Shown: positions 26,981 through 54,419 of the stretch, in pieces
How the letters are laid out: each line of letters opens with the position of its first letter
Numbering within the stretch: position 1 is the first letter of the stretch
Notes under the pieces: model-generated
What the model saw: the letters and a program-made list of their open reading frames with translations, nothing else
The model's database searches: none
What the model was told of the DNA's origin: nothing
Source: a virus
Taxonomy: Duplodnaviria > Caudoviricetes
IMG/VR virus record: IMGVR_UViG_3300032304_001448
Coordinates: 4,207-68,206 of that record
Direction: 5' to 3' (one strand)
Length of the DNA stretch: 64,000 nt
Program-made: the position numbers and the translations under genes

Positions 26981-27597
26981 TAGTAACCGATACCAGAGTG
27001 ACCCCGCCCGGCGGTTGGCGTTATGTTCAACCGGAGACGGGCTTCGAGTTTGCCGCTTCGACCTTGCGCGAACTGGTCAAGAAGGTAGCGACCCATCGTA
27101 AGTCCAATAGTCTTGCGGCGGGTGATCCTTCGGCCGACATCCAAGACTTTGTCTGTGCCCAGCTTCCGGTCGGCAGCGAGAGTTGCAGTCACGTCATCGA
27201 GGGTGACTACGCACTCAAGACCCACTTCACGATGGAGGACGTTAAGCGTTTCATCCAAGCCGCGGTCTCCGCACTTAGGGGCAGGGGACTCGTTGATCAA
27301 CCCGAAGCCGAACGCCGGGCCGCGCTCTGTGCCTCATGTCCCCTGAACACAACGGTCAAGGGGTGCTGGCGGTGCAAGGGGTTGGCCGAATGGCTCTTCA
27401 ACCTGATCGGTGCACGGACCACGGCTTATGCTTCACGGCTCAACCAATGCGGGGTCTGCGGGTGCGCGATCAAAGCAAAGATCTGGTTGCCGCAGGATGT
27501 CGCTCAAGAGGTCAGCCAAGGCTACACCTTCCCATCCTGGTGCTGGCTCAATGAGAAACCACTCCCGACGGGAATCGAACCCGTATCGCAGCCTTGA
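26977..27597 (+). CDS. Cys-rich putative zinc-binding protein
   Basis: CASCPLN, CWRC, CGVCGC, P.WCW motifs; ATGA overlap with giant gene stop. Confidence 0.7.
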   Translation: MIVTDTRVTPPGGWRYVQPETGFEFAASTLRELVKKVATHRKSNSLAAGDPSADIQDFVCAQLPVGSESCSHVIEGDYALKTHFTMEDVKRFIQAAVSALRGRGLVDQPEAERRAALCASCPLNTTVKGCWRCKGLAEWLFNLIGARTTAYASRLNQCGVCGCAIKAKIWLPQDVAQEVSQGYTFPSWCWLNEKPLPTGIEPVSQP

Positions 27598-27631
27598 GAG
27601 GGCTGTGTCCTAACCGTTAGACGACGAGAGC
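27560..27631 (-). tRNA. tRNA-Glu (CTC), no encoded CCA
   Basis: GCTCTCG/CGGGAGT acceptor, CAGCC-CT-CTC-AA-GGCTG anticodon arm, GGGTTCGATTCCC T arm. Confidence 0.9.
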
Positions 27632-27648
27632 AGACTACCCCGATGAAA

Positions 27649-40166: not shown

Positions 40167-40235
40167 CGCAGGAAAGGCTGGTGCCCCGACGGGTCTCATA
40201 AGCCTGTTGTCCGAGTTCGATCCTCGGTCCTGCAA
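40167..40235 (+). tRNA. tRNA-Met(CAT)-like, initiator-type C1:A72 mismatch, reduced D arm
   Basis: GCAGGA/TCCTGC acceptor, CTCATAA loop, CCGAG-TTCGATC-CTCGG T arm; TGcTATATT extended -10 upstream. Confidence 0.65.
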
Positions 40236-41828: not shown

Positions 41829-44150
41829 TTAATAAGGGTCGTTGTCCACCTCGACCGTCTCCGGCGTCGGCCGGGTCAGCCGGTATTTGTTCAGCTTGGC
41901 CGCTCCGCACCTTTTCTTGATGATCTCGATGTTCGGGTCTTGGCGGGAGACAAGCTGACTGAGTCGTGTTGAGAGAGTCCGCACCGGCCAATCGCGGATA
42001 ATCAGGGTGTTGTCGAAGGTGTCGTTAAGCGCCTGGAGGAATTCGACGGCGGTGCCCTCCCAGACATCGGTGGCGCTATCGACGCGCCGCCACCATGCGT
42101 TGATAAGGTCGCGCAGTTCCGCGTGCTTCCCGCCGGCATCAATCTTGTCCCGCACTTCTTGGGCGATGATCCCGCGGACGATGTAGCGGTTGGCCGCGTC
42201 GATATATTTGACCGGCACCTCCCACGCCTTGAGCCAAGCGAGGAAGGCGGGCAGTTCGATCTCCACGTCCTTGAGTTCTTCGACCGTCGGGCCTTCGTCG
42301 TAGGTTCTGAGGGCCAGAGCGATGATCTTATCCTCGTTCGAGATATCGAGAGCGGGGACGGCCTTGATCGAAACCGGATCGTCGTTGGCTGCGATGACGA
42401 CTCGGCCGCGCCACTCGACCATGATCGGGGTCAGATACTTCTCATGGTATTTGTGCTTCCCGTGGGCCACGAGCTTCTTCACGTAGCTCGCGTAGCGTTG
42501 AAGGGCTAACTCAGACTCGGCGGCACGGGAGTCATCGATGATGGCGAGCGGGGACTGGAAGAGATCGGCGTTGAATCCATTGCCTTCGCCCGACACAACC
42601 GAGGAGAGATCGGCGTAGCCGCCCATTGCCGGGGCGAGGAGGCGTTCGAGCAGGAAGGTCTTAAAGCAGTGCACCGGACCCACCAGGATCATGGCTTGTC
42701 CCATGCAGAGTTTCCCTTGTTCCGCGCTTTCGTAGAAGCGTTTCAGCCAGAAGAGGAAGATGTCCTTGTAGTCGAGGTGGGCGAAGACGTTGTCCAAGAT
42801 GGCGGCGTAGCGGGGAAAACCGACGCCCCAATCGTCTGCGGTCTCAGCGGCCTTGGTGATCTTCACGTTCTTCGCGGTGTTGAGGTATTTCTTACCGCCC
42901 TCGAACCAGAGTTCGTTCGGGTTGTAGAGGCTCGGGCCGGCACCGTCCACGCGGCGGTGGGTGCGAATGAAGGCTTTGGCTTTGTCCATCGGCGACATGG
43001 CCGCACCTTTCGGGGCGCGGTCGGAGATGTTGCGGCATTTGAGTTCGCTGGACAGCATCGCGACCATCTCGTAGCGCCAGATCCCGTCGCCCGCTTTCAT
43101 AAAGAAGGTCTTCCCGTCGTAGTAGATGTCTTCAAACTGTCCGCTCTTGCTGGCCGAAGTGAATGGTTTGCTAGAATCTGTCGAATCCTGACAGTTGGTA
43201 TCGTCGTCCGATACCTCCGCGTCGGATTCTAATCCCGTGGATTTCGACGGGTTCACGCGCCCAGCCTCCGGATTGAAGTAGATCAAGGTCTGAGCTTTGC
43301 CCGTATCCTTGCGAACGCACCCAGGAACCCGGGTCAGTCGCACCGCGGACATGGCGGCGGGGTCGGCTCCGAGTGGGACGACGAGGTCGGCGATCTCCGC
43401 GGCACGGGCCAAGTAGCCTTCGCGGTCTTTCTGGCCAACGCGCACGAGAGCGTGAGCGGACTTCGAACCCGAGGTAGTGACGGCGACGATTGGGAGATCG
43501 AGCTTGGTAAGGACACGGAGCCAGAGTTCCATTTCGACCGAATCGGATTCGATCAAGAGATACTCATAGGCGACCAAGTTCTCCTCGGCGCGTTGAGACT
43601 TCTTACCGAGCCGCGGAATCGGGAGAAACTTCCCGTTCACCGGGTTGACCATGATCCACGCACCTTCGGTATTGTTCGCAATCGCGCTGGTCACGAGTTG
43701 TTCGGGCATCGTATCGTTCCAGACGAGCTTCCCCTGGGACTGTTGGTCGGTGAAGATGATGTTCGCCTGCTTTGGGTAGAGGCAGCGAAGGAACTCGGCA
43801 GCGGTGATATCGGCGACCGCGACAGGCGAGGACTGGAGGAAATCTTCCACCGGAAGCGGGCCTTCCGCGGTCAGGGCCTTGAGCTTCTCGGGATCAAACG
43901 CCCGTTTGAGAGAGACACGGGCCTTGGGCTCGATCAGCCCCTCGACCTCGGCACGCACCTTGGAGACAGTGTCAACGATCTCGCGGGGTTGGGGTGGGCG
44001 CTCAAGGTAGTGGGTGATCCACTGGTCGATGAATTGGTCATCGTAAGAGTTAGCAACCAGCGCGTGCGCTGCGCCATACATCCATGAGTGGCATCCTTGG
44101 CCGGAGGCTGGGCATGGGTTTATTCCGAGTTCTTCAGGTGTGGGGTTCAT
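41829..44150 (-). CDS. primase-helicase (primase domain + superfamily-3-like helicase)
   Basis: LIESD, SGSKSAHA, RLTRVPG primase motifs; degenerate Walker A GPVHCFKT, IIDD Walker B. Confidence 0.75.
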   Translation of the reverse strand: MNPTPEELGINPCPASGQGCHSWMYGAAHALVANSYDDQFIDQWITHYLERPPQPREIVDTVSKVRAEVEGLIEPKARVSLKRAFDPEKLKALTAEGPLPVEDFLQSSPVAVADITAAEFLRCLYPKQANIIFTDQQSQGKLVWNDTMPEQLVTSAIANNTEGAWIMVNPVNGKFLPIPRLGKKSQRAEENLVAYEYLLIESDSVEMELWLRVLTKLDLPIVAVTTSGSKSAHALVRVGQKDREGYLARAAEIADLVVPLGADPAAMSAVRLTRVPGCVRKDTGKAQTLIYFNPEAGRVNPSKSTGLESDAEVSDDDTNCQDSTDSSKPFTSASKSGQFEDIYYDGKTFFMKAGDGIWRYEMVAMLSSELKCRNISDRAPKGAAMSPMDKAKAFIRTHRRVDGAGPSLYNPNELWFEGGKKYLNTAKNVKITKAAETADDWGVGFPRYAAILDNVFAHLDYKDIFLFWLKRFYESAEQGKLCMGQAMILVGPVHCFKTFLLERLLAPAMGGYADLSSVVSGEGNGFNADLFQSPLAIIDDSRAAESELALQRYASYVKKLVAHGKHKYHEKYLTPIMVEWRGRVVIAANDDPVSIKAVPALDISNEDKIIALALRTYDEGPTVEELKDVEIELPAFLAWLKAWEVPVKYIDAANRYIVRGIIAQEVRDKIDAGGKHAELRDLINAWWRRVDSATDVWEGTAVEFLQALNDTFDNTLIIRDWPVRTLSTRLSQLVSRQDPNIEIIKKRCGAAKLNKYRLTRPTPETVEVDNDPY

Positions 44151-44160
44151 TACGGCGTTA

Positions 44161-45537
44161 TTACTTGGTATATTGTTTAGAGATGATCGCTTCGGCTCCG
44201 AGGGGGAGGTCGCTACACCACGAGGGCGGTGTGCACATGATTTTCTCGACGGCTTGGCGATGGGCTTCGGCGTCGGATTCGTCCACCAGCAAAACTACTT
44301 CGTCGTGGACTCTTAGCAAAATTTCATAACCCGCGTCTTCCAGCGCCATGACGCGATCCATGAAGACATCACGGGCGAATGCCTGAGTGGCATTTTCTGC
44401 GAGGAGACCGCCATACAGTTTGACCTCCATCATTTTGCCGAGACGGGGCAGGAGTCCGGTGATCTCGCCGTTGTGGCGCTTGATCTGTCGGTAGACGAGT
44501 TCGCGGCCGGAGGGTAGGGGGATGGTCAGTTCGCGGTCATTCGGATCGGTGGAGACACGCAGCGCCCGGTCGAGCTTCTTCCACAGCGCGATGATCTTCG
44601 GACTGGCCTCGCGATACGACTGCACAATCGATGTCGCTTCCTGCAAAGTTATGTCGAGTCCGGCCAGCATCTTGGCGACGACGACGAACTTCGCGGGTCC
44701 GCAGCCATAGCCGAGACCCAAGACACGGGCCTTGGCGAGAAAGCGCATCTTCGGATCCACTTCCTTGAGCGGTCGCGGATCGTTGTAGCCCATTGTGGCA
44801 CGAGCGTGCGCTTCGTAGATGTCAACGCCGCTGGCGATCAGATCAAGGAGTTCACGATCCTTGGCGAGGTAGGGCAGGCAGCGTGCTTCGATCTGGGCAA
44901 GGTCACAGATGACGAGCGTCTTGCCGGCCGGAGCTTCGATCAGCTTGCGGATGTCGACGCCGGCCACTTCACCCTTCGGGATGTTCTGACAGTTCCAGCC
45001 GCCACCGCCCGAGTCGCGTCCGGTCGTCGCGCCGAAGAACTTCAACTCATAAGGCATACGCCCATCGGGGCGGGTGCGAGCGATCATTGTGGTCACCGTG
45101 TTGAGGTGTTTATTCGCTTTGCGGTAATCCCTGACCGCCCGCACCCACTTAAATTTATCAGAAAATTCAGCCTCCCATGCCGCGCCTTCGGGATCCTTCT
45201 CGGCAAAAGACTTGGGGGCCCGGATACCTTCCTTCTCGCACTGGTCGCGGATCGCTTGCAGCGAGAGCGGAGGATACTCGCCACCGATCCACGGAAGCAG
45301 GGCTTCGGCACGGCGCTTCTCCAAGATGAGTTTATCCCGCGCCTCGATCAGCCGGTCCATGTTGACCGGCACCCCGCGCATTCCCATCTGGCGCGTCATG
45401 GCCGAGATCCGCCATTCACGGTCGGGCATCTTCTCGGCGAACTGCTGCCAAAGCATGAAGGTCGCTTTAATGTCCAGCAGCGCGTAGCGGGCGACTTCTT
45501 TTTTGAAGTCGTTGGTCATGTAAGGGGATTTAGGCAT
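44161..45537 (-). CDS. family A DNA polymerase, ExoIII + polymerase domain (C-terminal part of split gene)
   Basis: YALLD; TTGR.SG; DLAQIEAR (motif A); R..AK...LG.GYG (B); VHDE (C). Confidence 0.9.
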   Translation of the reverse strand: MPKSPYMTNDFKKEVARYALLDIKATFMLWQQFAEKMPDREWRISAMTRQMGMRGVPVNMDRLIEARDKLILEKRRAEALLPWIGGEYPPLSLQAIRDQCEKEGIRAPKSFAEKDPEGAAWEAEFSDKFKWVRAVRDYRKANKHLNTVTTMIARTRPDGRMPYELKFFGATTGRDSGGGGWNCQNIPKGEVAGVDIRKLIEAPAGKTLVICDLAQIEARCLPYLAKDRELLDLIASGVDIYEAHARATMGYNDPRPLKEVDPKMRFLAKARVLGLGYGCGPAKFVVVAKMLAGLDITLQEATSIVQSYREASPKIIALWKKLDRALRVSTDPNDRELTIPLPSGRELVYRQIKRHNGEITGLLPRLGKMMEVKLYGGLLAENATQAFARDVFMDRVMALEDAGYEILLRVHDEVVLLVDESDAEAHRQAVEKIMCTPPSWCSDLPLGAEAIISKQYTK

Positions 45538-45772
45538 CGGGCTTCTTCAATACAAAGGGTCTTGGTAGCAGGATCGGCCGCTGTCCCGCCTTCCGGCTGG
45601 TTGTCTTGCGGCGGTAGCCGATCAAGGCCAGGTCGTCGCCCGACTTCGCGATGATCGGGATGAGCCGGCCCTGCTTCACGAGGCGCTCGATCTTCGGCAT
45701 ACCGTGGCGTTGTTTTGCTTGGTTGGTGGCTGTTCGTTGCACGACAGACCCGTCTTTCAGTCCGTAGCTCAT
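45530..45772 (-). CDS. small basic protein inside polymerase insert
   Basis: Coupled ORF (ATGA overlap). Confidence 0.6.
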   Translation of the reverse strand: MSYGLKDGSVVQRTATNQAKQRHGMPKIERLVKQGRLIPIIAKSGDDLALIGYRRKTTSRKAGQRPILLPRPFVLKKPDA

Positions 45773-46179
45773 TGTTCAGATAACTCCTTTAAGGTCTTGA
45801 GGCATTGGTTCATCTGCATCCCGTCCATGACGCGGCAGGACGAAATCTTGTTCGGACGAAATACGGTTCCGCTGTCTGATTCCTCCTCGATCTCCAATAG
45901 CCGGATCAGTTCACGGACGGTGTCCCGGTATTCCTGATTGAGTTCGGCGGCGGGCTCACAGGCATAACAAGTGCCTTGGTATCCTTTACGAATACTTTCC
46001 AGCTTCGATCGCAGGTCTGCTTCCCGCTCCGCGCTCATCCCAAGCAACCGGGCCTGTTCTAAGCACTCGGCTTGAGCGGCATCTCGCTGATCCTCAAACT
46101 CGGCCAGCGCGTCGAAGACGTTAGTCTTGCCCTGCCGCCACCGTTCGATGGCTTCTCGTGTGTGGGGATGATCCTTCAT
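45769..46179 (-). CDS. coiled-coil protein inside polymerase insert
   Basis: ECLEQARLLGMSAERE..L; C.ACE; EESDSG..F.P..ISSCR. Confidence 0.65.
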   Translation of the reverse strand: MKDHPHTREAIERWRQGKTNVFDALAEFEDQRDAAQAECLEQARLLGMSAEREADLRSKLESIRKGYQGTCYACEPAAELNQEYRDTVRELIRLLEIEEESDSGTVFRPNKISSCRVMDGMQMNQCLKTLKELSEQ

Positions 46180-46379
46180 CGTCTGACAAATGTTTGCCCG
46201 CCCAGCCACATCGCGTTGAGATGCTCGTGGGAGTAGTCCGGTTTCCAGAAGAAAGCCGAACGGCAGTGGGTTTTGCGGTCTTCCTCGAACGTGACATAGC
46301 CATCGTTCTCGTGGCCGAATTCTTCGGGTGTGCGCCATCCGGAGATGGCTTGGAATACTTTTAAGAGTCCTTGGTCCAT
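46176..46379 (-). CDS. small protein inside polymerase insert (MDQGLLKVFQ...)
   Basis: ATG overlaps Lys-Trp codons of exo gene, AAGGA upstream. Confidence 0.55.
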   Translation of the reverse strand: MDQGLLKVFQAISGWRTPEEFGHENDGYVTFEEDRKTHCRSAFFWKPDYSHEHLNAMWLGGQTFVRR

Positions 46380-46846
46380 TTCATTCCTTTCATGTTGTCT
46401 CGGGTGGATTTGCTCATCTCGATCCCGAGGAGATGTTTGGCTGCTTCTTTGAGCGACCTGGGGTAGCCCATGTAGGCGGCAAGGTCGGCTGTATCGAAGA
46501 CGTAGCGAGGCGCAACCCCAGGCACCTTGCCGGTCTCGACGAGGGCCTCGAAGAGCGTCAGGTCGAAGGCTGCGTTGTGCATTATCCAATCTCGAAAGTG
46601 ACATTCAGACCAAGGGGCATCTGCTGGCTGGCCGACGTAACACGTCCCGTCGTCGAAATACATCGCGACCATATAGATGTCGGTTTCGCGAGCATACTTC
46701 CAAGCGCCCATAGTGGTGACGCTAATGTCCTTGTCATAGTAGGACTCGAAGTCGATCGCGACAGAAGGGTGCCGGGGGAGGACTAGTTGACGCCCCGCCT
46801 CCCCAGACGGGTTGTTTGATGAAGTGGTCTCCCCCGGCGAAGTCAT
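46361..46846 (-). CDS. family A DNA polymerase 3'-5' exonuclease fragment (ExoI + ExoII; N-terminal part of split gene)
   Basis: IDFESYYD (ExoI), HNAAFD (ExoII), DTAD, PRSL. Confidence 0.85.
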   Translation of the reverse strand: MTSPGETTSSNNPSGEAGRQLVLPRHPSVAIDFESYYDKDISVTTMGAWKYARETDIYMVAMYFDDGTCYVGQPADAPWSECHFRDWIMHNAAFDLTLFEALVETGKVPGVAPRYVFDTADLAAYMGYPRSLKEAAKHLLGIEMSKSTRDNMKGMKWTKDS

Positions 46847-47034
46847 AGCTCGTAAACCTCCACGGGCATGTGGTCTTGCGCCCAAAGGATTTCAGTTAGT
46901 TGATTCCCTGCGAAGACGCAGAGGTCTTCGACTAGTTCCTCTTGGGCGGCGATCTCGTCGATCAGTTGTCCGAGCGTTGTAAAAGAGTCACGCGGTCCGA
47001 AATTGATGCGACCGATGGTGTAGTCAGTGTTCAT
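46843..47034 (-). CDS. small hypothetical protein
   Basis: MNTDYTIG start; ATGA overlap with exo gene. Confidence 0.55.
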   Translation of the reverse strand: MNTDYTIGRINFGPRDSFTTLGQLIDEIAAQEELVEDLCVFAGNQLTEILWAQDHMPVEVYEL

Positions 47035-47281
47035 AGAATTGTTTGAGGATCGCCCGTTTTCGCAGGGCTTTGACCCGCACCTCCGTTCGCCTGCGATGTT
47101 TCTGCGCGAGTAGTCGTTGTTTGAGGTGGGGTCGTGAGGATCGGTGCCACTTGTTGCAGTATTGGCATCGATAAACTCGGAAGTCCTCCGACCGTTCGGC
47201 TGATGCCGCTTCCTTGGAGTCGAACGGCCGCTTCCGTAAACAAGCTCGGCCGTAAGCGAGATTCTCCGAAACGTGCGGCAT
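47024..47281 (-). CDS. small zinc-finger protein
   Basis: C.RK..F.S...A ... YRC.YC..WH. Confidence 0.65.
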   Translation of the reverse strand: MPHVSENLAYGRACLRKRPFDSKEAASAERSEDFRVYRCQYCNKWHRSSRPHLKQRLLAQKHRRRTEVRVKALRKRAILKQFYEH

Positions 47282-47284
47282 AAC

Positions 47285-47458
47285 TCATTCTTCCTCCTTG
47301 GCCGCTTCACGCTTTTCTTCGCAGTCACACTCTCCGTAAAAGCCTTCGCAGTATTCGCAATACTCTTCCATTGGGTCGCTGCGTCTGGCCCAGTAGTGAG
47401 CCTCTTCAGCGTCCATGCCTTGCGCTTCGTCGCGGTCTTGATCGGGATCACTCGGCAT
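47285..47458 (-). CDS. small acidic Cys-rich protein
   Basis: MPSDPD...CEYC......CDC. Confidence 0.5.
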   Translation of the reverse strand: MPSDPDQDRDEAQGMDAEEAHYWARRSDPMEEYCEYCEGFYGECDCEEKREAAKEEE

Positions 47459-47569
47459 CGTCGTCTTCCCTCCCGCGTTTGATAGCCCAGGCGAACATCG
47501 CTCCGTAGGTTGAGAGCCCGCCGAGCAGCAGCCCGAAGCCCATCCCGACAAGAAAGAATCCTTCGGGGT

Positions 47570-47872
47570 TCATTGTAACCTCCAGAAGCGAAGCCGATCC
47601 ACGCCTTCACTGTCGGTGACGGCTCGGGTCGCGAACTTCTTCTTTCCACGCCGGCCGATGCTGTGAGCGATCGAGCGCAGTCCGTTGAAGTGTTCGTGTG
47701 TCGAAGCCGGATAGATGAACGAGTCGCCGACGTTCAGATTGCCCAGCAGGTAGGAGAGCGGGTGTTGATACCGCGACTGTTCGCCCGGTTTCTTGTCTGC
47801 GAGAGGAACGTCCTCGTCGATAACGACAGTGTAAGTCCTCACTTCGCGTCTCCTCCCTTGGCGGCGAGCCAT
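47570..47872 (-). CDS. small putative DNA-binding protein (start uncertain)
   Basis: IDEDVPL...L.VGDSF...KFATR......RFWR motif. Confidence 0.6.
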   Translation of the reverse strand: MARRQGRRREVRTYTVVIDEDVPLADKKPGEQSRYQHPLSYLLGNLNVGDSFIYPASTHEHFNGLRSIAHSIGRRGKKKFATRAVTDSEGVDRLRFWRLQ

Positions 47873-53192: not shown

Positions 53193-54419
53193 TCACCACT
53201 TTATTAAAGAGGACAAGCCATTTTCTTCGGCATAAGCTCGCACTGATATTGGGTTGATATTAAACCACTCGTCGGCTTCCGCCGTGGTTACGAGGCCGCG
53301 GTAGTGCTTTTGCAGGGTCTTCGGGCTGTTACCTGCGAGGTAGGAGGTCTCGTTGGCGTTGCGGTATTTGGCATAGTGGTAGGTGCAGAACGAGTGCCGG
53401 AGCACATTGTTCTTCCACTCAACCCCGACGGCTGAGAGACGGGCCTTGTTCCGGCTCAGTGCCGCCACCCGGCGGTGGCTGGTCAGGCGACCCTCTTCGG
53501 GGATCTCGGCGACTGCGAGCCAGGCTTTCATCTGGTCGGTGATGTCCAGAGTCCGGCGAGCCGCAGTCTTGGCGATCGTCTCGTCGATGACCGCATGGTG
53601 CTCATCGAACTTGAGTTGAGCCGCCGTCATCCGCTGGAACTCTGCCCGACGCGAACCGGCGAATGCCATCGTCGCGATGTAGGGGATCTCGTCCGGCTTG
53701 GCGATCAAGAGGAGGTGCATAAGCTCCCAAGGCTTGAAGGTCGGCACCACTCTGCGGTCGAGGGAGGGGAGAGCCAGGTCCGCGGTGATGGAGTCGGCGT
53801 CCTTACCGAGGTAGCCTTTTTTCTTGGCGAACTTTTCCATCATCTGCCAATGGCGCACCAGATTGCGGTAAGTGAATGGCGACCACTCGCCCTTGCTGAT
53901 GTAGCCCTGGAACTCCTCATGGGTCACACTGTTAAGTTGTCGGTGTCCGATCCAGCGCCGGATGTGGTTTGAATCGGTCGAGAGCCCGTTGAGGTAGGAC
54001 TTCGAGAGCCCCTTCAATTTCTGTCGCTCCCGCATCGCTTCGACGAATTCGACCGACACTTCTTTTACTGTCCTCCGACCAGCCCCGATCGGGTTCTTGG
54101 CTACGTATTGTTCCACGGCTTCAAGCAGGCGACTTTTGCCGCCCGCTTTGCGTAAGCACTCGCGAAGGAATAGAGTATCCTCCGGATGAATTGTAGTCTT
54201 CTCGCCGAGGGCGCTGGCCAAGTCAGTGACGATCCTTTGAGCCTCCTCTATCGCTTTGTCGCGTTTGGCAAAGACGCGCCTCATCGTCTTCCGCCCTACC
54301 TTCCAGCGGATGAGGAACTGGCGGTAAGCTCCATTGCGGACCTTGGCGATGTGCGCCTTGGCCCCATTGAGCCGGACGACAACGCCCTCGTTTCGGGTGT
54401 CAGTAATTTCGATTTTCAT
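53193..54419 (-). CDS. int: tyrosine recombinase / integrase
   Basis: FAGSRRAE (R), AKT (K), N.LRHSF, GNS......HY catalytic motifs. Confidence 0.9.
   Translation of the reverse strand: MKIEITDTRNEGVVVRLNGAKAHIAKVRNGAYRQFLIRWKVGRKTMRRVFAKRDKAIEEAQRIVTDLASALGEKTTIHPEDTLFLRECLRKAGGKSRLLEAVEQYVAKNPIGAGRRTVKEVSVEFVEAMRERQKLKGLSKSYLNGLSTDSNHIRRWIGHRQLNSVTHEEFQGYISKGEWSPFTYRNLVRHWQMMEKFAKKKGYLGKDADSITADLALPSLDRRVVPTFKPWELMHLLLIAKPDEIPYIATMAFAGSRRAEFQRMTAAQLKFDEHHAVIDETIAKTAARRTLDITDQMKAWLAVAEIPEEGRLTSHRRVAALSRNKARLSAVGVEWKNNVLRHSFCTYHYAKYRNANETSYLAGNSPKTLQKHYRGLVTTAEADEWFNINPISVRAYAEENGLSSLIKW

What the first reader, a model, noticed from the sequence alone, without database searches (positions are those of the whole stretch)
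44161..46846. DNA polymerase split inside its proofreading domain by an 859-nt, three-ORF insert bounded by an in-register direct repeat
Seen: ExoI/ExoII are in 46361-46846 and ExoIII (YALLD) plus polymerase in 44161-45537, in different frames. The first half ends TGG ACC AAG GAC TCT TAA AAG; the second resumes ATG ACC AAC GAC TTC AAA AAA. GACCAA(G/C)GACT is repeated in codon register 859 nt apart, and joining at it yields in-frame ...MKGMKW-TND-FKKEVARYALLD. The insert holds three ordinary coupled small ORFs with no intron core, intein or homing nuclease visible. Inference, alternatives: excisable DNA element acting as a replication switch (integrase present), RNA-level splicing, long ribosomal bypass with matched take-off/landing codons, or a heterodimeric polymerase with an exonuclease site assembled in trans.
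Basis: partly seen in the sequence, partly recalled or inferred. Interest (0 to 1): 0.8.

Follow-up and report, generated by a model that had tools for sequence, protein, structure and literature searches.

The report
Phage DNA polymerase in two genes
An uncultured 68-kb lake-water phage, like a whole group of its relatives, encodes its only DNA polymerase as two separate genes cut inside the proofreading domain, with a changeable set of small genes between them; split phage polymerases are already known, but not with this cut point.

Summary
The sequence facts hold. ExoI/ExoII lie in 46846..46361 and ExoIII plus the polymerase in 45537..44161, on the minus strand in different frames. Three coupled small ORFs lie between, and an 11-nt repeat with one mismatch sits 859 nt apart in codon register.

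The repeat does not mark a removable insert:
- Joining at it gives a loop three residues shorter than in intact relatives. Plain end-to-end apposition of the two products restores the spacing seen in 45 of 47 distant intact loci.
- Relatives are cut at the same loop, but the gap runs from 350 to 3446 nt with mosaic content.
- 15 of 46 stand-alone exo parts and locus L004 lack the repeat-bearing tail.
- No contig joins the two copies.
- No intron, intein or nuclease was found.

Both halves are under purifying selection and keep all three Exo motifs. A complex model scores 0.91 against a best control of 0.01.

Best reading: a stable gene fission giving a two-chain polymerase with a composite proofreading site, and a cargo slot between the halves. 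Split PolA is in print (PMC10201439), so this is a new variant. Trees show the split state changed at least twice. This scan reached the same conclusion earlier on related phages (e1-6031182, e1-6031201).

The parts
46361..46846 (-). Exo part of the split family A polymerase: 161 aa with the ExoI and ExoII motifs. Native sequence runs through K-W-T-K, followed by two extra residues and a stop.
   Evidence: ORF. PF01612 at E 1.2e-4 and phrog_17 DNA polymerase at E 4.5e-10. 46 stand-alone homologues. dN/dS 0.15-0.34.
46366..46376 (-). Repeat copy 1 (GACCAAGGACT). It straddles the native exo codons W-T-K and the first codons of ORF-A.
   Evidence: Sequence. L004 has neither this tail on the exo part nor M-D-Q-G at the start of ORF-A.
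46176..46379 (-). ORF-A, 67 aa. A conserved small protein of unknown function whose start codon lies inside the exo K-W codons.
   Evidence: Conserved in split and intact relatives. dN/dS 0.09-0.29. Model pLDDT 88.8 with no PDB fold match.
45769..46179 (-). ORF-B, 136 aa. Variable cargo gene that overlaps the ORF-A stop (ATGA).
   Evidence: Full-length in L008, nearly so in L009; only the frame-overlapped first ~55 codons match in most others. No PHROG match; as part of the longer 189-aa frame it gave only a weak sub-threshold Pfam match (DUF745).
45530..45772 (-). ORF-C, 80 aa. It precedes the pol part and its stop overlaps the pol ATG.
   Evidence: dN/dS 0.05-0.44. In L012 it is nearly identical to the window's copy while the pol part is 83% identical, a sign of mosaic exchange.
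45507..45517 (-). Repeat copy 2 (GACCAACGACT), covering codons M7-T-N-D-F of the pol part.
   Evidence: Sequence. These codons are conserved in all 12 loci examined.
44161..45537 (-). Pol part, 458 aa. Six new residues (M-P-K-S-P-Y), then native sequence from the conserved Met, with ExoIII and the polymerase domain.
   Evidence: PF00476 at E 3e-28. 34 split-type homologues, all with ExoIII. dN/dS 0.05-0.19.
41829..44150 (-). Context: a 773-aa DUF5906 primase/helicase-like gene that starts 10 nt after the pol stop.
   Evidence: Pfam DUF5906 at E 3.9e-7. Syntenic in split and intact relatives.

Best explanation
This is a stable gene fission of the phage's only family A DNA polymerase. The cut lies in a loop of the 3'-5' exonuclease domain, between ExoII and ExoIII.

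The two parts are translated as separate proteins from one co-oriented, translationally coupled gene string. They associate non-covalently, so the proofreading site is built from two chains: ExoI and ExoII from the 161-aa chain, ExoIII from the 458-aa chain.

Nothing is removed at the DNA, RNA or translation level. The space between the halves serves as a slot in which small accessory genes of unknown function are gained, lost and exchanged among related phages.

Shown here:
- the split, its conservation and the selection on both halves;
- the variable gap;
- the exact complementarity of the two parts to intact relatives.

Inferred: physical association, which rests on a model only, and co-transcription.
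For: 1. The genome is complete and holds one copy. It is a 68,206-bp virus record with direct terminal repeats, rated 100% complete, with a single exo match.

2. All 28 closest full-length relatives of the pol part (66-97% identity, P0001-P0028) are of the split type. Intact proteins of 580-607 aa appear only from 65% identity down.

3. There are 46 stand-alone exo parts, all ending 2-7 residues after the conserved W. In 12 of 12 IMG/VR loci that hold both parts, the cut is at the same loop.

4. The catalytic motifs are kept. ExoI is present in 44 of 46 exo parts, and the two misses are N-terminally truncated records. ExoII is present in 46 of 46. ExoIII is present in 34 of 34 split pol parts.

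5. Selection is purifying against nine relatives with dS up to about 1.2: exo 0.15-0.34, pol 0.05-0.19.

6. The parts are exactly complementary. Intact relatives have two residues between the W and the conserved Met in 45 of 47 distant loci (alignment). The exo part carries W plus two residues, and the pol part resumes at that Met.

7. The complex model gives ipSAE 0.91, 0.91 and 0.90 against a best of three controls of 0.01. The runs share at least 93% of contacts and the partner pLDDT is at least 82. The tool's mark was reached by 58 of 80 solved complexes and 2 of 110 mismatched pairs, and these counts hold only roughly because my own alignments were used. The interface puts pol residues 18-30 (ExoIII) against exo residues 30-34 and 88-93 (ExoI, ExoII). 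Intact PolA structures are solved, so this pass may reflect likeness to them.

8. The genes are coupled by overlapping start and stop codons. No terminator-like or promoter-like site lies in 44000-47800 (weak evidence).
Against: - There is no protein, RNA or biochemical evidence. Association rests on a model that may simply recall intact PolA structures.
- Only contigs could be laid on the locus, not raw reads, so a rare joined DNA form cannot be excluded.
- The 11-nt repeat is somewhat rarer than chance (1.3% of random pairs), and most close relatives keep it: 11 of 12 loci have T-K-D or T-K-D-S. It is therefore not fully explained.
- Polymerase motif A or C patterns were missed in 4 of 34 split pol parts (P0002, P0003, P0104, P0108). 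I did not follow these up.
Confidence: 0.85

Rival explanations
1. The 859 nt are an excisable DNA element. Recombination between the two repeat copies, perhaps by the phage integrase, restores an intact polymerase gene and so acts as a replication switch.
For: The repeat is in codon register and its removal is in frame. It is rarer than chance at 1.3% of random pairs. An integrase gene lies at 53193..54419.
Against: - The join would leave the loop three residues shorter than in intact relatives.
- The gap ranges from 350 to 3446 nt with mosaic content in 12 loci.
- L004 lacks copy 1, and 15 of 46 exo parts have other tails.
- Copy 1 is partly made of the ORF-A start.
- No contig of four runs joins the two copies. 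The joints that were seen lie at gene borders inside the gap.
- No recombinase gene was found in the gap.
Confidence: 0.03
2. The gap is removed from the RNA by a self-splicing intron or trans-splicing, or from the protein by a split intein.
For: Phage polymerase genes often hold introns and inteins (recalled). Relatives carry about 300-aa intein-like in-frame inserts elsewhere in the pol part.
Against: - No Rfam intron match in 43500-47500 at E up to 1.
- The gap is filled by coupled ORFs under purifying selection.
- Only 4 non-conserved residues follow the conserved W in the exo part (the first two stand where intact relatives also have two residues), and only 6 extra residues precede the native sequence in the pol part. 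That is too short for intein halves.
- No Hint or nuclease domain was found.
Confidence: 0.02
3. Ribosomes hop from the T-K-D codons of the exo part to the T-N-D codons of the pol part, a long translational bypass.
For: Take-off and landing codons are similar, and a stop follows the take-off site.
Against: The known bypass in T4 gene 60 spans 50 nt (recalled). Here the distance is 859 nt, and up to 3446 nt in relatives, across translated genes. The take-off codons are absent in L004 and in 15 of 46 exo parts. The product would be three residues short.
Confidence: 0.01
4. The exo part is a leftover that no longer works with the polymerase. The pol part acts alone, without proofreading, or with another partner.
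For: Exo-less PolA enzymes exist. The passages I read in PMC10201439 describe CCPol.
Against: The exo part has dN/dS 0.15-0.34 at dS up to about 1.1. ExoI and ExoII are kept in all complete records, and ExoIII is kept in 34 of 34 pol parts. The model interdigitates the two chains.
Confidence: 0.05

Closest known systems
Exo/pol gene fission in S-SBP1-like T7-type cyanophage PolA (Czernecki et al. 2023, NAR, PMC10201439; I read the abstract, section 32 and passages)
   Same: A phage family A polymerase is encoded as a separate exo gene and pol gene on one strand. It is interpreted as a fission giving two interacting chains, and a predicted complex superposes on an intact relative.
   Different: In that case a frameshift makes two overlapping adjacent genes with nothing between them. 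Here 350-3446 nt of other genes lie between. The cut is between ExoII and ExoIII, so the pol chain carries ExoIII. The lineage is different: the best cultured-phage matches are only 25-27% identical. I could not determine where the S-SBP1 cut lies relative to ExoIII.
Split DNA polymerase of OM43 phages MEP401/MEP402 with a small unknown ORF between the parts (PMC10580990; passages read)
   Same: A family A polymerase is split into two genes with inserted ORFs of no known function. The authors raise the same intron question.
   Different: Relatedness and cut point were not compared here. That paper reports one small ORF, not a variable multi-gene slot.
[quoted passage not shown]
   Same: A temperate-looking phage of similar size with an integrase and a split PolA.
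   Different: Described as clustering within the T7-like cyanophage polymerases. No sequence comparison was made here, and the genome-contig scans found no relative.
T4-type phage Aeh1 gp43, split by a mobile endonuclease gene
   Same: A replicative polymerase made of two chains, with an intervening gene.
   Different: That enzyme is family B and the insert is a homing endonuclease gene. No nuclease domain was found in 13 insert ORFs here.

Membership tests
Family A DNA polymerase with 3'-5' proofreading domain | Polymerase domain (PF00476) with the motif A and motif C acidic residues | tested here: met
   PF00476 at E 3e-28. The D-L-A-Q-I-E and V-H-D-E patterns are in the window's pol part. 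Motif names are recalled.
Family A DNA polymerase with 3'-5' proofreading domain | ExoI, ExoII and ExoIII motifs present | tested here: met
   ExoI and ExoII are in the 161-aa chain and ExoIII is in the 458-aa chain.
Family A DNA polymerase with 3'-5' proofreading domain | Exo and pol on one polypeptide | tested here: not met
   A stop follows K-W-T-K-D-S and the pol part is in another frame 823 nt downstream.
Split PolA by gene fission (S-SBP1 type) | Separate exo and pol genes conserved in a clade, both kept under selection | tested here: met
Split PolA by gene fission (S-SBP1 type) | Adjacent overlapping genes made by a frameshift | tested here: not met
   Three genes lie between the parts here, and one to about ten in relatives.
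Split PolA by gene fission (S-SBP1 type) | Membership of the T7-like PolA cluster | not tested
   No comparison with T7-like sequences was made.
Self-splicing intron in a phage polymerase gene | Group I or group II ribozyme core | tested here: not met
   No intron family at E up to 1 in 43500-47500.
Intein or split intein | Hint-domain blocks flanking the break | tested here: not met
   Only 4 and 6 non-conserved residues at the break, counted from the conserved W and up to the conserved Met. No Pfam intein family on either part.
Free-standing homing endonuclease gene splitting a host gene | A nuclease domain (HNH, GIY-YIG, LAGLIDADG or similar) in the insert | tested here: not met
   The three window ORFs and ten ORFs from L004, L006 and L008 give no such Pfam or PHROG match.
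Site-specific excisable element | Conserved direct repeats at both ends and a joined empty site in DNA | tested here: not met
   The repeat is absent in L004 and in other lineages. No joint at the repeat in contigs of four runs (contigs miss rare forms).
Programmed translational bypass (T4 gene 60 type) | Matched take-off and landing codons conserved, with a short untranslated gap | tested here: not met
   The gap is 350-3446 nt of translated genes, and the take-off codons are not conserved.

The most novel reading that the evidence does not exclude
The loop between ExoII and ExoIII is a reusable breakpoint. The split state has arisen, or been undone by re-fusion, at least twice at the same residue, and the intact sister clade's 11-residue longer linker at that exact spot may be a re-fusion scar. 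Placing cargo between the two halves of an essential enzyme would guarantee its expression and retention. Making the ExoI/ExoII chain a separate, earlier cistron could let the phage tune proofreading, and so its mutation rate, through subunit stoichiometry. ORF-A, a conserved 67-aa protein of unmatched fold that always sits beside the polymerase gene, could be a third subunit.
Probability: 0.15. Interest if true: 0.7.

Novelty: new variant of a known kind. Interest (0 to 1): 0.4.

Why it matters
The locus shows that a family A polymerase tolerates a break inside its proofreading domain, not only between domains, so the exonuclease site is assembled from two chains. This state is stable across a large group of uncultured freshwater phages.

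It gives a natural system for three questions:
- how the exo and pol parts of PolA hold together;
- whether proofreading can be dosed separately from synthesis;
- how phages create protected slots for accessory genes.

For annotation, short "exonuclease" and "exo-less polymerase" calls in such phages should be read as one enzyme.

Tried and rejected
Searches and steps that led nowhere:
- The exo part against cultured phages gave no match. The pol part's best cultured matches were only 25-27% identical.
- Two genome-contig scans, one with the single protein and one with alignment A2, found no relative, so the host stays unknown.
- The metagenome scan with P0030 and the viral scan with P0107 did not retrieve those proteins' own contigs. 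The gaps of the two more distant split lineages could therefore not be read. Their exo partners are inferred only from equal longest-contig lengths: P0162 with P0107 (46,127) and P0166 with P0033 (5,270).
- No RNA holder was listed for the stretch, so expression could not be examined.
- All four runs laid were contigs, which cannot show rare joined forms, starts or ends.
- The PDB sequence search aligned only the pol domain, so the cut could not be mapped on a solved structure by sequence.
- For ORF-A, the ESM Atlas gave no usable hit, Foldseek against the PDB gave a best E of 1.1, and there was no PHROG match (Pfam was run only on the longer overlapping 142-aa frame).
- The roughly 300-aa in-frame inserts in P0009, P0022, P0026 and P0113 gave no Pfam intein match at E 1e-3. 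I call them intein-like only from their end residues.

Ideas considered and dropped:
- That copy 1 of the repeat is a relic of the pol 5' end. The part from C-T-C-T-T-A-A-A-A onward is ORF-A coding sequence shared with intact phages. In L004, where ORF-A is not fused to the exo part, it starts differently and the exo part ends right after W.
- A microhomology origin. The 8-mer ATGAAATG occurs at the exo M-K-W codons and also at the pol stop / ORF-A start of L027, L028 and L030, but not L031. This fits a rearrangement that moved ORF-A from behind pol to behind the exo part, but I could not test it.
- Lateral transfer of the junction alone as the cause of the patchy distribution. The exo-part tree and the pol-part tree agree that the P0033/P0166 lineage is sister to the intact P0092.

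Supplements of the papers were not opened.
Full report
What is there. The window is most of a complete 68,206-bp virus record with direct terminal repeats. It carries tail and virion genes, a helicase-nuclease and a tyrosine integrase. On the minus strand the order is as follows:
- a 161-aa gene, 46846..46361, with ExoI and ExoII;
- ORF-A, 46379..46176;
- ORF-B, 46179..45769;
- ORF-C, 45772..45530;
- a 458-aa gene, 45537..44161, with ExoIII and the PF00476 polymerase domain;
- a DUF5906 primase/helicase-like gene, starting 10 nt further on.
Every junction in the string is an overlap of stop and start codons. The record holds one exo copy and no intact polymerase.

The repeat. In 3000 random pairs of windows from this sequence, 38 had an equally long match. 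The repeat is therefore uncommon but not striking for a feature picked out after the fact.

Copy 1 is a chimera. Its first bases are the exo codons W-T-K, and its last bases belong to ORF-A, whose ATG sits inside the K-W codons. In L004 another gene is attached at that ATG. There the exo part ends right after W, and ORF-A, further downstream, starts with other codons.

Does the join restore the enzyme? Intact relatives have W, two residues, then the conserved Met and T-x-x-F (alignment A1). In 45 of 47 distant intact loci exactly two residues separate the positions matching W170 and M7. The exo part ends W-T-K plus two extra residues. The pol part has six extra residues and then resumes at that Met. 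The two products together therefore hold every native residue once.

Relatives. Of the 120 best homologues of the pol part, the 28 closest full-length ones (66-97% identity) are all of the split type. Intact proteins of 580-607 aa start at 65% identity. In all, 34 of the 120 are split-type and all 34 keep ExoIII.

A search with the exo part found 46 stand-alone proteins of 100-177 aa, each ending 2-7 residues after the W. The tail is T-K-D or T-K-D-S in 31 and something else in 15. ExoI is present in 44 of 46, and the two misses are truncated records. ExoII is present in 46 of 46.

In 12 IMG/VR loci that hold both parts, the distance from exo stop to pol start is 350, 350, 350, 419, 419, 685, 742, 742, 789, 1334, 1833 and 3446 nt, against 823 here. 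A thirteenth locus starts too close to the pol part to show the exo part. ORF-A follows the exo part directly in 11 of the 12 loci, and in the twelfth (L004) it lies one gene further on. ORF-C-like sequence precedes pol in most, and the middle differs between loci. ORF-C of L012 is 98.75% identical to the window's, while the pol parts are 83% identical. That points to module exchange.

Thirteen insert ORFs (three here, ten from L004, L006 and L008) show no nuclease, intein, transposase or recombinase family. Rfam finds no intron.

Selection. Against nine relatives, dN/dS is 0.15-0.34 for the exo part, 0.05-0.19 for the pol part, 0.09-0.29 for ORF-A and 0.05-0.44 for ORF-C, with dS up to about 1.2 (1.46 for ORF-C against L010). 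The exo part is a working gene, not a remnant.

Reads. Twenty runs hold part of the stretch, all as contigs, mostly lake-water metagenomes. One may be the source of this DNA. On four runs laid at 85% likeness, no joint links the two repeat copies. The joints near the gap are 45537 to 46182, 45658 to 46175, and 46181 to 46353. Most of their ends lie at the borders of ORF-A, ORF-B and the pol start, which fits relatives with other cargo. Contigs cannot exclude a rare joined form.

Association. A two-chain model built from alignments A4 and A3 scored ipSAE 0.91, 0.91 and 0.90, against 0.01 for the best of three controls. The runs share at least 93% of contacts and the partner pLDDT is at least 82. 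The tool's mark was reached by 58 of 80 solved complexes and 2 of 110 mismatched pairs, and these counts hold only roughly here. Pol residues 18-30 pack against exo residues 30-34 and 88-93. In the model, then, ExoIII sits next to ExoI and ExoII. Intact PolA structures are solved, so the pass shows likeness to them rather than proof of binding.

Origin and history. In eight loci of an intact sister clade the order is exo-pol (one gene), ORF-A, a roughly 500-aa gene, a small ORF, then the primase-like gene. ORF-A directly follows pol in 7 of the 8, and the eighth locus ends inside pol. In split phages ORF-A directly follows the exo part, and pol abuts the primase-like gene. Relative to intact phages, the pol segment and the ORF-A block have swapped places. 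How this happened is not shown.

That intact clade has an 11-residue longer linker at exactly the cut point.

In a tree of the pol region, a well-supported clade (SH-aLRT 96) holds 13 split and 6 intact rows. At least two changes of state are forced by the starred branches. Holding the split rows together costs 135.7 log-likelihood units, p-AU 1e-50. Two caveats apply: the group was named after a first tree had been seen, and no mixture model was used. A tree of the exo region agrees that the split P0166 is sister to the intact P0092 (SH-aLRT 99). Fission at this loop has therefore happened more than once, or has been reversed.

Comparison with what is known. Czernecki et al. 2023 (PMC10201439; abstract, section 32 and passages read) describe exo/pol fission in S-SBP1-like T7-type cyanophages. 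It arose by a frameshift, leaves overlapping adjacent genes, and has a predicted complex. They call it the first such case in PolA. OM43 phages MEP401/402 have a split polymerase with a small unknown ORF between the parts (PMC10580990, passages). A temperate cyanophage lineage with a split polymerase is reported in bioRxiv 10.1101/325100 (passages). I found these with searches. None of the passages I read describes a cut between ExoII and ExoIII or a variable multi-gene gap, but I did not read the papers whole or open their supplements.

This scan has already followed up the same arrangement on related phages and reached the same conclusion (e1-6031182, e1-6031201). First-stage notes on two more genomes also describe it (e1-6173919, e1-6197492).

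Verdict. The exotic mechanisms are not supported. The trans-assembled heterodimer is the best reading, at confidence 0.85. It is a new variant of a known kind and of moderate interest.

Noticed in passing
window 46176-46379 (-); L027:7800-8015, L031:7813-8022: ORF-A is a conserved 67-72-aa protein that always lies next to the polymerase gene. It comes right after the intact gene in intact phages and right after the exo part in split ones. The model is confident (pLDDT 88.8; two helices and four strands), with no PDB fold match, no PHROG match (Pfam run only on the overlapping 142-aa frame) and no usable Atlas hit.
   Followed up: partly
P0009, P0023, P0024 (after G-G-G-G-W-N); P0022, P0026 (after L-L-A-E-N); P0113: Split-type pol parts of relatives carry in-frame inserts of about 300 aa at two different sites. 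Each insert begins with Cys. Those of P0022 and P0026 end in H-N before Cys, and that of P0009 ends in G-N before Cys. They are intein-like by these ends, but there is no Pfam intein match at E 1e-3.
   Followed up: partly
L027:6360-6450, L031:6360-6460 (and P0037, P0044, P0045, P0054, P0064): The intact sister clade has an 11-residue longer, proline- and lysine-rich linker at exactly the cut point of the split phages. Its P-K...M end resembles the six extra residues at the start of the split pol part. This could be a re-fusion scar.
   Followed up: no
L027:8020-9561, L028:3572-5086, L031:8006-9553: Intact relatives hold a 445-515-aa gene between ORF-A and the primase-like gene. It has a P-C-Q motif typical of cytosine-5 DNA methyltransferases (motif recalled; no family search was run). 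The window has no such gene at this place.
   Followed up: no
window 45530-45772 (-) versus L012:5766-6005: ORF-C is 98.75% identical between the window and L012 (dS 0.11), while the adjacent pol parts are 83% identical (dS 1.05). This is a recent exchange of a single small gene between diverged phages.
   Followed up: partly
L009:5297-5500; L001:5240-5632: ORF-A has an in-frame stop in L009. In L001 it runs on into a 130-aa frame. ORF-A is therefore not intact, or not of constant length, in every relative.
   Followed up: no
window 46377-46384 (-); L027, L028 and L030 at the pol stop: The 8-mer ATGAAATG occurs at the exo M-K-W codons of split phages and also at the pol stop / ORF-A start of three of four intact relatives checked. 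It may be microhomology used in the rearrangement.
   Followed up: partly
window 27559-27632 (-), 40167-40235 (+): The phage carries tRNA-Glu(CTC) and tRNA-Met(CAT) genes.
   Followed up: no
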